NCBI RefSeq assembly: GCF_009914755.1
Contig: NC_060934.1
Origin: the human T2T-CHM13v2.0 reference genome, Homo sapiens
Reading direction: 5' to 3' (one strand)
Length of the DNA: 64,000 nt
Part shown: positions 16,986 to 22,038 of the stretch, in pieces
Position numbering within the stretch: the stretch's first letter is position 1
How the letters are laid out: the number at the start of each line of letters is the position of its first letter
The notes under the pieces: model-generated
Told to the model about the DNA's origin: nothing
The model's input: the letters and a program-made list of their open reading frames with translations, nothing else
Databases searched by the model: none
Program-made: the position numbers and the translations under genes

Positions 16986-17780
16986 GTTTTCAGAATCAAG
17001 TAAAAGAAACTTAGTCTTGTTTTGTATGTCCCTAAGTATTAATAATACAATTATGAAATAATGTAAGAATTATAAACAATTCATATTCTTTCTCTACTTT
17101 TGCTAAAAATCAATAAAAAAGTGAAAGGATATGTAAATGTAAGATTATGAGGAACAAGTAACTAAAAACCACCAAACCAAAGCCCAAATCATGACCTATG
17201 CTTAAAAAAAAACTCTGCTCAATGATATAGTTGGATATAAATTTTTTAAATTTTTTATGTTAAATATTATAATTTGTCACAAACCTCATTCTCATATTTA
17301 CACACAAGGACAATTCCAAAAATATATAATGATCACAGCCCAAATGGATCCCCACAGAATTGAATGTGAGCCTCTTTTTGGCTAGTTGAAGAGGCATAGT
17401 TAAGTCTGGGAACTTTTTAAAGGCTGAGGACAAAATGCATCTAAACATTTGTTTCATTGAAGGCTAAAGTCTATGGAGTAATGGTGGCAGTTTTTTCTGA
17501 AAGGAAGCTCTGAATAGATCAGTTGTTAGAAATCAGAGGAAGTGGGAGAAGTGAAGATGCAAAGAAGATCAGGGTGTGGAAAGAAAGAGCTTGAACCTAG
17601 GGAGCTACTGTTAGTAAAATTAGTATTTTTTAAATATGTGGCCTAACTGATGTTTTAAATAAATAAATATTTTAAATAAATAAATAAAAATTTTTTAAAT
17701 TTTCAGATAAAAATTTATGTATTTATTATATACAATATGTTGTTTTGACATATTTATACATTGTGGAATGGCTAAATTGA

Positions 17781-18087
<307 letters not shown>

Positions 18088-18787
18088 TGAGCTAATTAAT
18101 ATTTGCATTATCTTACATACTTTTTTGTGTGTGTGATGAGAACACTTAATATCTCTCTTAGCAATTTTCAAGAATGCATTGTTATTAAATATAGACATCA
18201 TGTTGTACAATAGATCTCTTGAACTTATTCCTCCTTACAGAGGAATAAGTTCCACCCCATCCAGCCACTGGTAGCAACCATTCTACTCTGCTTCCATGAG
18301 TTCAACTTTGTTAGATTCTACATGTAAGTGAAATCATGAAGAACTTGTTTTTCTGTACCTGGCTTATTTCACTTAACATAGTATCCACCATTTTCATCCA
18401 TGTTGTCAGAAAGGACAGAATTTCCTTCATTTTTAAGGCTGAATTGTATTCTATTGTGTATATACCATGTTTTTAAATCAATTCATTTGTGGATGGACAT
18501 TTAGGTTGATTCCAAATCTTGGCTATTGTGAATAATGCTGCAACAAACATAGGAGTGCAGATATCTCTTCAACATATCAATTTCATTTCTTTTGGCTATA
18601 TACCCCGTAGTGGGATTGCTGGATCATATGGGAGTTCTATTTTTAATTTTTGAGGAAGCTTCATACTGTATTACATAATGACGGTGCTAATTTACATTCC
18701 CACCAGTAGTGCACAAGGTTCCCTTTTCTCCACATCCTCTCCAACACCCCTTATCTTTGTCTAATTGATAGCAGCCATTTTAATTGA

Positions 18788-19189
18788 TGCTTGCTAGCTG
18801 TGCATACAACAGATCAGATTTTTGACAAAAGTGCCAAGAACACAATGGGGGAAATGATAGTCTCTTGAGTAGATGGTGTGTGGGCAATTAGATATCCACA
18901 TGCAGAAAAATGAAATTACACCTGTAATTGGAATAACATTCCAAAACATATATGCCATACTGTTTTGATTACATATCTGTAAAAAATCAACCTTGACTGT
19001 AAATTTCTGGGCTCTCTATTCTGTTCTAAAGAACTCTTCTAAAGTTGTTATGATTCTTTTTTGTAGTACATTTTGAAAGGCTGAATACAATTCAGCCTTA
19101 AAAATGAAGGAAATTCTGTCCTTTCTGATAACATGGATGAAAATGGAGGGCATTATGTTAAGTGAAATAAGCCAGGCACAGAAAAACAA
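18788..19189. other. Composite templated insertion built from local sequence
   Basis: Fragments match 20223-20253, rc19666-19775, 19832-19864, 19770-19811, 20710-20752 and rc18345-18451; the host L1 resumes colinearly on both sides. Confidence 0.9.
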
Positions 19190-20279
19190 TGAGTGATATC
19201 TCATTGTGGTTTTCGTTTAGATTTCACTGATGATTAGTGATTTTGATGATTTTTTGACCTACCTGTTAATCGTTTGTATATCTTTTAAAAAATATCTGTT
19301 CAAATTCTTTGTCCATTTATTAATTAGGTTATTTGTTTTCTTACTATTGTTTGTGTTCCTTATATATTTTGAATTTTAACCCCTTGTCAGCTGTATGGTT
19401 TACAAACATTTTCTCCCATTTCATAGATAATCTCTTTACTCTGTTGGTTGTTTTCTTGGCTGTGCAGAAGCTTTTTAATTTGATGTAATCCCATTTGCCT
19501 ATTTTTGCTTTTGTTGCCTATGCTTTTGGGTTCATATTCAAAGAATCATTGTCTAGACCAATGTCATGAAATGTTTCTCCTATGTTTTATTCTAGTAGTT
19601 TTACAGTTTCAGATTTTACATAAGTCTTTAATCCATTTTGAGTTAATTTTTTACATGGTGTAAGATACAGGTGTAATTTCATTTTTCTGCATGTGGATAT
19701 CTAATTGCCCACACACCATCTACTCCAGAGACTATCCTTTCCCCCATCGTGTTCTTGGGACCTTTGTCGAAAATCAATTGACTGTAAATTTCTGGGCTCT
19801 CTATTCTGTTCCATTGATCTACTTGTCTGTTTATATGCCATACTGTTTTGGTTACATATCTGTATAGTATATTTTGAAGTCAGGTAGTGTGATCCTTCCA
19901 GTTTTATTCTTTTTGCTCAAGAAGTATTATTTTCGTTTGTCTGAAGCAATGGCCAATTACTTACAAACTGAGAAAATATCGCTAAAGGATAGCTTTTAAT
20001 AAACGTGTGCAGGCCTCACCCAGAACATTCTGTTTTGGGAAAAAATTAAAAAACTGCTAAGATTAAAATTATCCTTAGTAAATTCACACTAGAGGATTCA
20101 TTTATCTTAGAGAACATGAGACCCAATGACATCCCTGCATATTATTGTAAAGTTTTAGCTACTTGTTTTAATTTCTTGCCAAAAGTCTAAATAAAAGCCA
20201 AAAAAAAAAAAAAAAAAGCTTTTGCTTGCTAGGTATGCATACAACAGATCAGACACTTGCCCTTAAAAGATGTAACATA

Positions 20280-20485
20280 GGCCGGGCGATGTGGCCCATG
20301 CCTGTAATCCCAGCACTTTGGGAGGCTGAGGTGGGTGGAGCACAAAGTTAGGAGTTCAAGACCAGCCTGGCCAACATGGTGCAATCCCGTCTTTACTAAA
20401 AATAGAAAAATTAGCTGGGCATGGTAGCAGGCACCTGTAATCCCAGCTACTCAGGAGGCTGAGGCAGGAGAATCGCTTGAACCCA
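20280..20485 (+). mobile_element. AluS lacking its 3' end and A-tail
   Basis: Left arm plus part of the right arm, stops at gcttgaaccca; no TSD. Confidence 0.93.
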
Positions 20486-22038
20486 TCACTTTTTAATTTG
20501 AAAATCTATATAATAAAATGTTTCAAACATGCAGAAAAGTTCACAGACTATCCACCATTAAAAATTATACCTACCACCTGGAATCAACTAATATTAACAT
20601 TTTGCCATATTTAGATTATTTTCACTTCAGGTGATTATCATAGGAAAAAAAATGGAACATATAGTTGAAGGCTTTTCCCATTTCATTTCTCCTCTCTCCT
20701 CAAAGACACAACTCTTCTAAGGTTGTTATGCTTCCTTTTTGTAGTACATTTTAAAATAATTATCACTCATATATTTTTCATCAATTGTGTACATTATTTT
20801 ATGAGTTTAACTTTTAAAAAGGTATCTTACTGTGTACAAATTTTTATTTCACATTATGTTTCAGATTTTTGTTGAAATATGTAAATGTGTTTAATTCACT
20901 TTGACTGCTGTATACTAGTCCATCATACATACATACATGTTTTTCCATCCCCCTGTTGATGGGCATGTAGGTTGTTTCCAAATATTTGCTATTACAAAGT
21001 GGCACTGATTATCCTTATGTATGTTACCATGTATACATTTTTATGTTTCTCAAGGGTACCTGTAAGGAATTAAATTTATAAGGCATTGCCAAATTCTTCT
21101 CCAAAGAGGTTGCTGTTTTGTCACATTTCCCCTACATGTGTTATACTCATACTTTTTAATTTTTGCTTTCCTCATGGATGAGAAATATTATCTTTTAAAT
21201 GTTTCGTTGGTAATTAATAGGTCTGACTGCTTTTTCTTAAGATTTTTGGCCAGCTTCCTCTGCAAATTTTCACTTCATGTCTTTTTCCAGCTTTCTATCT
21301 GTTGTTAGTTTTTCTCTTACTAATTGGTGGAAGTTCTTTATATATCCTGAATACTATTCCTCTCTTGGTTATATATCTCCAAGTTTGAGCCTTGTATGTT
21401 AACATACCCAAAAAATGTAATCAGATCTATCAATCTCTTCTCTATGGTTTCAACCTTTGCATTTTGTTTAAGAAAATTTTTCCTGCCTTATCACAAAAAC
21501 TATTCTATATTTTATTAGTAATTTTACCTTTTTGTTTTTTTACATTTAGGTATTTGTTCCTCATGGAAATTTTTTGGCAATAGACCTAACTCTTTTGCCA
21601 TATGAATAGAAATTTGTTCCAGTAACTGTTAACTAAAGAGTCCATTATTTTCCAACTTAATATTTTGTCACCTCTCACATACCACGTTTTGTTTCTGCAC
21701 TCTATTTTCTGTTTCATGTATCTATTCATTTATCCTGATATCAATATCACACTATTTTAAGTACTATAGCTGTGTAATAAGTCTTCAATCACAGGTTGGG
21801 TTCCAGGGGGAGGAAAATCCTGAGATAGAACTTAGCATGAAGGAGGTTTATTAGGGATTCTCCTTTGAATCAAAACCTGTGGGAGGGAAAGAAAACAAGA
21901 TGAACTGGGAAGACAGAGAAGTTGAGGTGTGATGCATTCCCAGCGAAGGCCTCAGCCAACCTCACAGGAAGCTCTGGAGCTGGGACAGCTTTTCAGGGTT
22001 GTCCCAAGCATGGATCAGGAAACTGCCCTGGACAGCCA

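What the first reader, a model, noticed from the sequence alone, without database searches (positions are those of the whole stretch)
18788..19189. 400-bp patchwork insertion stitched from at least six local fragments of both strands: a fossil multi-template-switch repair event
Seen: the host L1 reads ...gccattttaattga | tgagtgatatctcattgtgg... across the insert. In order the insert comprises: 18788-18818 = 20223-20253 (direct, 29/31); 18817-18926 = reverse complement of 19666-19775 (104/110); a ttggaat-aac-attccaa hairpin (18928-18944); 18949-18981 = 19832-19864 (32/33); 18983-19026 = 19770-19811 (direct, +2 bp); 19032-19074 = 20710-20752 (40/43); a snap-back aaggctgaat (19077-19086); and 19083-19189 = reverse complement of 18345-18451 (101/107). 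Donors lie on both sides within ~2 kb, and two are outside the host L1, so L1 twin priming cannot explain it. Junctions show short overlaps or hairpins. Known: FoSTeS/MMBIR and polymerase-theta end joining make such chains of templated inserts, mainly described in cancer and de novo disease alleles. Inference: one germline repair event. The similar ~5% divergence of the fragments suggests it is old and fixed in primates. A repeat annotator would split it into unrelated L1 pieces. The two ~110-bp inverted copies could also form dsRNA if transcribed.
Basis: partly seen in the sequence, partly recalled or inferred. Interest (0 to 1): 0.85.

Follow-up and report, generated by a model that had tools for sequence, protein, structure and literature searches.

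The report
Fossil multi-template patchwork insertion in L1
A 400-base block inside an old L1 repeat was stitched together from at least six short copies of nearby DNA on both strands, which is the scar of one error-prone, template-switching DNA repair event, a kind already catalogued in human germlines.

Summary
Six segments of 31-110 nt in window 18788-19189, plus a 10-nt fold-back piece, match donors lying 336-442 nt upstream and 476-1566 nt downstream. Four are direct and two inverted, and 351 of 370 aligned bases are identical. They cover 374 of 402 nt. They are the only local pairs of at least 28 nt and at least 90% identity in the 64-kb window.

Genome-wide, the local donors are always the best hits. 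B matches its donor at 95% against 85% for the next hit, and F at 94% against 90%. E has only its local donor. C and D have one other hit, at 85%. The A donor is unique.

The host L1 is at most 81% identical to other scored copies. Fragments and donors share 32 copy-specific substitutions and differ at 13 polarisable sites. The block therefore post-dates the L1. The L1 reads straight through the site with no loss. Junctions carry 0-4 nt of microhomology.

The best reading is one old germline break or stalled fork repaired by serial template switching (MMBIR/FoSTeS or polymerase-theta class). It is a known kind: multi-template germline insertions are already catalogued. Age, fixation and dsRNA or editing are untested. 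Interest is modest.

The parts
18237..18789 (-). Host L1, left part, up to the break. The last two bases, TG, are shared with the A donor.
   Evidence: 70-78% identical to other L1 copies. Other L1s read straight across the site.
18788..18818 (+). Segment A: direct copy of 20223-20253, 29/31.
   Evidence: The donor stretch is unique in the genome.
18817..18926 (+). Segment B: inverted copy of 19666-19775, 104/110. It overlaps A by GA.
   Evidence: Local donor 95% against 85% for the next-best hit genome-wide. 17 shared copy-specific sites.
18927..18948 (+). 22 nt with no donor. Contains the hairpin ttggaat-aac-attccaa (18928-18944).
   Evidence: No other genome match at up to 1 mismatch. The local exact matches of 8-9 nt are scattered, and none was shown to be a donor.
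18949..18981 (+). Segment C: direct copy of 19832-19864, 32/33.
   Evidence: 6 shared copy-specific sites.
18983..19026 (+). Segment D: direct copy of 19770-19811, with no mismatch and a 2-nt insertion.
19032..19078 (+). Segment E: direct copy of 20710-20756, 43/47. It may extend to 19028 if a 4-nt gap is allowed.
   Evidence: The local donor is the only other genome hit.
19077..19086 (+). Fold-back piece S: direct copy of 18435-18444. With the start of F it forms a 10-bp stem with a 3-nt loop.
   Evidence: The direct-repeat family D8 covers it.
19083..19189 (+). Segment F: inverted copy of 18345-18451, 101/107.
   Evidence: Local donor 94% against 90% for the next best. 9 shared copy-specific sites.
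19190..19922 (-). Host L1, right part. It contains the B, C and D donors and ends at about 19922.
18345..18451 (+). Donor of F and S. It contains the quasi-palindrome gaat-tgt-attc (18441-18451) at the fold-back point.
19666..19864 (+). Donor cluster used three times: B inverted, D and C direct. B and D both start at the 8-nt palindrome tcaattga (19772-19779).
20223..20253 (+). Donor of A, just after an A-run (20200-20220) and outside the host L1.
20710..20756 (+). Donor of E, outside the host L1.

Best explanation
One DNA lesion inside an old L1, either a double-strand break or a collapsed fork, was repaired in the germline by serial, microhomology-primed template switching. This probably happened tens of millions of years ago.

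A free 3' end copied 31-110 nt from one nearby template, fell off and re-annealed at another. The templates lay on either strand, from 442 nt upstream to 1566 nt downstream. This happened at least seven times, and the end folded back on itself at least once, before the chain was joined to the other end.

The donors stayed in place, so this was copying and not cut-and-paste. No host base was lost.

Shown: the anatomy, the local origin of the segments, a date after the L1 insertion, and a clean insertion site.
Inferred: a single event, a germline origin, and the class of mechanism (MMBIR/FoSTeS or polymerase-theta-initiated synthesis).
Not resolved: which polymerase acted and in which direction synthesis ran.
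For: - Six segments plus a 10-nt fold-back cover 374 of 402 nt.
- They are the only such local pairs in the 64-kb window.
- The local donors are the best genome-wide hits. B is 95% against 85%. F is 94% against 90%. E has only its local donor. C and D have one other hit, at 85%. The A donor is unique.
- The host L1 is at most 81% identical to any scored copy.
- With 16-22 usable copies per segment, taken from 29 independently chosen L1 loci, fragment and donor share 32 copy-specific states. There are 9 donor-private and 4 fragment-private states.
- Other L1s are contiguous across the site.
- Microhomology at the seven resolvable junctions is 2, 2, 0, 0, 2, 4 and 0 nt.
- Switch points sit at a palindrome (tcaattga) and at a quasi-palindrome (gaat-tgt-attc).
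- Divergence is 19/370 = 5.1% and is homogeneous across segments (p = 0.61).
- There is no poly-A tail and no target-site duplication beyond TG.
- Published analogues exist. Germline multi-template insertions are described in PMC8421209 (section 10 read). Fold-back and inter-strand switching, with return to the same template, in Pol theta/Pol delta MM-BIR is described in PMC13065848 (passages read).
Against: - A single event is not proven. The heterogeneity test has little power with 0-6 mismatches per segment, and no outgroup species could be examined.
- Microhomologies are short. Three of the seven resolvable junctions have none. This is barely above chance, and 5% later divergence may have blurred them.
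- 28 nt have no template.
- Segments of 107-110 nt and donors up to 1.6 kb away are longer and further than the polymerase-theta inserts I recall as typical. This point rests on recall and was not read here.
- Both orientations were copied from the same side of the break. Simple annealing to resected ends does not explain that, so duplex invasion or a sister template is needed.
Confidence: 0.8

Rival explanations
1. Several independent small insertions or duplications accumulated at the same spot over time.
For: Single origin is inferred and not shown. Per-segment divergence ranges from 0/42 to 4/47.
Against: That range is not heterogeneous (p = 0.61). Six or more separate events would have to fall within 400 nt, while no other such local pair exists in the 64 kb. 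The segments abut with overlaps of 0-4 nt, and none interrupts another.
Confidence: 0.1
2. A patchwork cDNA was made by reverse-transcriptase template jumping on local sense and antisense transcripts, and was then captured at a break.
For: Reverse transcriptases jump between templates, and templated insertions derived from RNA are described. This rests on recall. No paper on it was read here.
Against: There is no poly-A tail and no target-site duplication. The model needs transcripts of both strands in a stretch with no annotated gene (hub table). The fold-back at a DNA quasi-palindrome and the donor cluster used three times fit DNA synthesis.
Confidence: 0.05
3. The pattern comes from L1 biology (twin priming or internal rearrangement at integration) or from chance similarity to other L1 copies.
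For: Four of the six segments are L1 sequence. F reaches 90% identity to an unrelated L1 copy.
Against: The donors of A and E lie outside the host L1. Fragments and donors share 32 copy-specific states. Their 5% divergence is far below the 19-30% seen between this L1 and other copies.
Confidence: 0.01
4. The block is an assembly artefact.
For: None was found.
Against: An artefactual join of reads would give identical copies. Here the copies differ at 19 of 370 positions and carry indels.
Confidence: 0.01

Closest known systems
Complex (multi-template) germline MMB-TI events, i.e. MMBIR-like templated insertions (Osia et al. 2021, PMC8421209)
   Same: The insertion is copied from several nearby templates in forward and reverse orientation. 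The junctions carry short microhomology. It is a germline insertion with no larger rearrangement (section 10 and the discussion passage read).
   Different: This one uses seven or more templates, against the 'up to five' reported there. It is about 400 nt long. It is old, with copies 5% diverged, and is not a polymorphism detected from reads. Their supplementary event lists were not opened, so larger cases may exist there.
FoSTeS/MMBIR and mitotic MM-BIR chromoanasynthesis (PMC13065848)
   Same: Both show serial template switching with fold-back and inter-strand switches at inverted repeats, and repeated return to one donor cluster (passages read).
   Different: Those events were induced in cultured cells at telomeric or TALEN breaks. 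They involve many loci and chromosomes and reach kilobases. This one is purely local, small and inherited.
Polymerase-theta-mediated end joining with templated insertions, and snap-back synthesis (SD-MMEJ)
   Same: Both show microhomology-primed copying of flanking DNA in direct and inverted orientation, fold-back hairpins, and iterative rounds. I saw only search listings for PMC5728401, PMC4912351 and PMC5068794. The details rest on recall.
   Different: The segments here are 31-110 nt and the donors lie up to 1.6 kb away. No deletion accompanies the insertion. As I recall, typical TMEJ inserts are shorter, copied from closer by, and come with deletions.
Short-range template switches in great apes (Walker et al. 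2021, PMC7954356)
   Same: Both are evolutionary, fixed template-switch mutations that create inverted repeats and hairpin potential (abstract and passages read).
   Different: Those are single short excursions with one return. This is a chain of many templates.

Membership tests
Multi-template templated insertion (MMBIR/FoSTeS-type, 'complex MMB-TI') | The inserted sequence matches nearby genomic templates, and those templates remain in place. | tested here: met
   Six donors lie within -442 to +1566 nt and all are still present. They are the best genome-wide hits.
Multi-template templated insertion (MMBIR/FoSTeS-type, 'complex MMB-TI') | Two or more templates are used, in direct and/or inverted orientation. 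| tested here: met
   Four direct and two inverted segments, plus a 10-nt fold-back.
Multi-template templated insertion (MMBIR/FoSTeS-type, 'complex MMB-TI') | There is microhomology at the switch junctions. | tested here: inconclusive
   The seven resolvable junctions carry 2, 2, 0, 0, 2, 4 and 0 nt. This is short, and 5% later divergence may hide or mimic it.
Multi-template templated insertion (MMBIR/FoSTeS-type, 'complex MMB-TI') | The insertion was formed in one event. | tested here: inconclusive
   Divergence is homogeneous (p = 0.61) and the cluster is unique in the window. No outgroup species was available.
Polymerase-theta end joining (TMEJ) templated insertion | It depends on polymerase theta. 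By my recall, inserts are usually short, copied from close to the break, and accompanied by a deletion. | not testable with these tools
   The enzyme cannot be read from the sequence. Segment length (up to 110 nt), donor distance (up to 1.6 kb) and zero deletion are atypical by my recall.
L1 twin priming or L1 integration rearrangement | All pieces derive from the inserting L1 RNA, and an inverted 5' part abuts a direct 3' part. | tested here: not met
   The A and E donors are non-L1 flank. The event is younger than the L1.
Retrotransposed insertion | There is a poly-A tail and a target-site duplication. | tested here: not met
   The insert ends ...gaaaaacaa. Only TG is shared at the two ends.

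The most novel reading that the evidence does not exclude
The block is a single, naturally fixed germline 'mini-chromoanasynthesis'. It would comprise nine or ten consecutive template switches that never left a 2-kb neighbourhood and returned to the break without losing a base. The trigger would be fork stalling in the spacer between the inverted Alu pair that brackets the site (17883-18019 and 20347-20483). If orthologous loci confirmed a single origin, it would be one of the longest local switch chains recorded in an inherited primate allele. It would also give a dated natural example with which to calibrate how processive and how local such synthesis is in the germline.
Probability: 0.3. 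Interest if true: 0.5.

Novelty: new member of a known kind. Interest (0 to 1): 0.35.

Why it matters
This is a clean, almost fully decodable example of serial template switching that entered the inherited genome. 93% of the insert is traceable to named donors. The switch points sit at palindromes, and no host base was lost.

Scars like this show that error-prone repair adds new sequence and new inverted repeats to germline DNA. They also mislead repeat annotation and alignment-based mutation counts.

The event does not reveal a new mechanism, and no function is indicated. The region has no annotated gene.

Tried and rejected
- Origin of the 22-nt gap (18927-18948). No other genome match exists at up to 1 mismatch. 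The local exact matches of 8-9 nt are scattered, and none was shown to be a donor. The count of 20 local 8-mer hits against a shuffle mean of 8.7 includes the gap's match to itself.
- A second fold-back. I considered 18941-18948 as the reverse complement of 19844-19851, a site within the C donor. The match needs the donor's G, which polarises as a later donor-private change, so I dropped it.
- Extending E leftwards to 19028 needs a 4-nt gap. I kept this as only possible.
- The first polarisation used L1 copies that had been chosen for similarity to the fragments. It gave 10 donor-private against 1 fragment-private sites, which reflects that bias. I repeated it with 29 L1 loci chosen using a different stretch of the host L1. 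The result was 9 against 4, not different from 1:1 (p = 0.27).
- The segment 19923-20200, which ends in an A-run, has no other genome match. Its nature is unknown.
- RNA fold of 18320-19800. The B pair forms a duplex of about 110 bp. The F pair crosses it and does not form in the same structure. This says nothing about whether the region is transcribed.
- No primate genomes, population data, reads or editing data are reachable with these tools.

Full report
**Observation**

I read 17600-21200 and searched it for repeats. I also ran BLAST of 18788-19189 against the whole window.
- A: 18788-18818 = 20223-20253, direct, 29/31.
- B: 18817-18926 = reverse complement of 19666-19775, 104/110.
- C: 18949-18981 = 19832-19864, 32/33.
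- D: 18983-19026 = 19770-19811, 44 columns with one 2-nt gap and no mismatch.
- E: 19032-19078 = 20710-20756, 43/47.
- F: 19083-19189 = reverse complement of 18345-18451, 101/107.

Window-level E-values run from 9e-47 to 5e-8. The 10-nt aaggctgaat (19077-19086) is a direct copy of 18435-18444. It overlaps F by GAAT and gives a 10-bp stem with a 3-nt loop.

Together these pieces cover 374 of 402 nt. The stretches 18927-18948 (22 nt, holding the ttggaat-aac-attccaa hairpin), 18982 and 19027-19031 have no donor. In a self-BLAST of all 64 kb, these six are the only pairs no more than 3 kb apart with at least 28 nt and at least 90% identity. The cluster is not background.

**Are the local donors the true sources?**

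The window's genome can be searched. The whole block is unique in it.
- For B, the local donor scores 95% and the next best of 40 scored L1 hits scores 85%.
- For C and D, only the local donors appear, plus one 85% hit on another chromosome.
- For E, only the local donor appears.
- The 60 nt that hold the A donor have no other match.
- For F, the local donor scores 94% and the next best 90%.

A 461-nt stretch of the host L1 that was not involved in the event is at most 81% identical to any of the other 39 scored copies. From that search I took 29 L1 loci, chosen independently of the fragments. Of these, 16-22 per segment aligned well enough to serve as an outgroup. With them, fragment and donor share 32 states that differ from the L1 majority. 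Nine states are private to the donor and four to the fragment. A further 232 columns are unchanged and 15 are ambiguous. The pieces were therefore copied from this particular, already diverged L1 copy, well after it had inserted.

An earlier polarisation used L1 copies picked for similarity to the fragments. It gave a skewed 10:1 split, and I set it aside as biased. The 9:4 split does not differ from 1:1 (p = 0.27).

**The insertion site**

The host L1 lies antisense on the + strand. The orientation rests on my recall of the L1 sequence. Its homology to other copies runs from about 18237 to about 19922, so the donors of A and E lie outside it.

Other L1 copies align up to 18783 and resume at 19190, with 6 nt in between. 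In the five copies among the 29 outgroup loci that matched my pattern, these bases end in GTG and are followed by TGAG. The host has ttga plus the first two bases, TG, of the 'insert'. The simplest reading is that no host base was lost or duplicated and that TG is a 2-nt microhomology with the A donor. The true insert is then about 400 nt. There is no poly-A tail and no target-site duplication.

**Junctions**

| Junction | Microhomology |
|---|---|
| host/A | TG (2 nt) |
| A/B | GA (2 nt) |
| C/D | none, with one extra a |
| D/E | none, with 5 unassigned nt (or 1, if E is extended with a 4-nt gap) |
| E/S | AA (2 nt), within an imperfect shared CATTTT |
| S/F | GAAT (4 nt) |
| F/host | none |

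The two junctions that flank the 22-nt gap cannot be resolved.

Two switch points sit on structure-prone sequence. B (inverted) and D (direct) both start at the 8-nt palindrome tcaattga (19772-19779). The S/F fold-back sits at the donor's quasi-palindrome gaat-tgt-attc (18441-18451). The stretch 19666-19864 was used three times, as the donor of B, D and C.

**Age and single origin**

Fragments and donors differ at 19 of 370 aligned positions. That is 5.1%, with an exact 95% interval of 3.1-7.9%. A Monte-Carlo test finds no heterogeneity among segments (p = 0.61), though its power is low. With recalled primate neutral rates of 1.0-1.2e-9 per site per year, this gives roughly 13-42 million years. 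Later gene conversion would make that an underestimate. The divergence also argues against an assembly artefact, which would give identical copies.

**Mechanism**

The order of donors along the insert is 20223, 19775 running down, 19832, 19770, 20710, 18435, then 18451 running down. This order is not collinear in either orientation, so a single duplication followed by deletions cannot produce it.

The pattern shows retained donors, both strands, short overlaps, fold-backs at palindromes, re-use of one donor cluster and a clean return to the break. It matches serial template switching during repair or restart.

The S/F fold-back is most simply made if F was synthesised first and the nascent strand then snapped back. 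That would mean the bottom strand was extended from the right-hand end. A switch between the two strands of the donor duplex gives the same product, so the direction is not settled.

Both orientations were copied from the same side of the break. Simple annealing to resected ends is therefore not enough, and duplex invasion or a sister template is implied. This favours an MMBIR-like process, possibly started by polymerase theta. The enzyme cannot be read from the sequence.

**What is known**

Osia et al. 2021 (PMC8421209; section 10 and a discussion passage read) report 103 and 99 germline templated insertions of at least 25 bp in two people. Of these, 33 and 26 are 'complex' multi-template events, and events copy from up to five templates. 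The authors suggest that some accumulated during human evolution.

A 2026 paper (PMC13065848; passages read) shows experimentally that Pol theta and Pol delta drive MM-BIR with inter-strand and fold-back switching and frequent return to the same template.

Hinch et al. 2023 (PMC7615360; passages read) mention template switching and TMEJ signatures in complex structural variants at meiotic hotspots.

Walker et al. 2021 (PMC7954356; abstract and passages read) catalogue single short template switches fixed in great apes.

The present case is therefore a member of a known kind. It is unusual mainly for the number of templates (seven or more) and for how completely it can be decoded. I did not open the supplements of these papers, so larger examples may be listed there. 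I did not search for this locus in print.

An RNA fold of 18320-19800 gives a duplex of about 110 bp for the B pair. The F pair crosses it and does not form in the same structure. There is no annotated gene here (hub table), and I have no transcription or editing data. The dsRNA idea remains a possibility and nothing more.

**Verdict**

Age, fixation and function are untested. It is a new member of a known kind, and I score interest at 0.35.

Noticed in passing
window 17883-18019 and 20347-20483: An inverted pair of Alu elements (137-nt arms, 89% complementary, 2327 nt apart) brackets the insertion site and five of the six donors. Inverted Alus are known by recall to stall forks, so the pair could have been the trigger.
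   Followed up: no
window 20279-20487: The right-hand Alu appears to break off at ...gaatcgcttgaaccc without its 3' end or A-tail. This reading rests on my recall of the Alu sequence. It suggests a second old rearrangement or deletion nearby.
   Followed up: no
window 19923-20220: A 278-nt stretch directly after the 5'-truncated end of the L1 ends in aataaa plus a 21-nt A-run, like a retrocopy. It has no other match in the genome. The A donor starts 3 nt after the A-run.
   Followed up: partly
window 17776-17788 and 18088-18100: The left-hand Alu (17790-18088, T-run at its left end) is flanked by a duplicated gagctaatta. This is an ordinary target-site duplication inside the 3' end of the L1.
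   Followed up: no
window 20880-21200: The sequence downstream of the E donor resembles, by recall, another much older L1 fragment on the + strand (motif ...gttgatgggcatgtaggttgtttccaaat...). The E donor may therefore lie in or next to a second, unrelated L1 relic. It is still outside the host L1.
   Followed up: no
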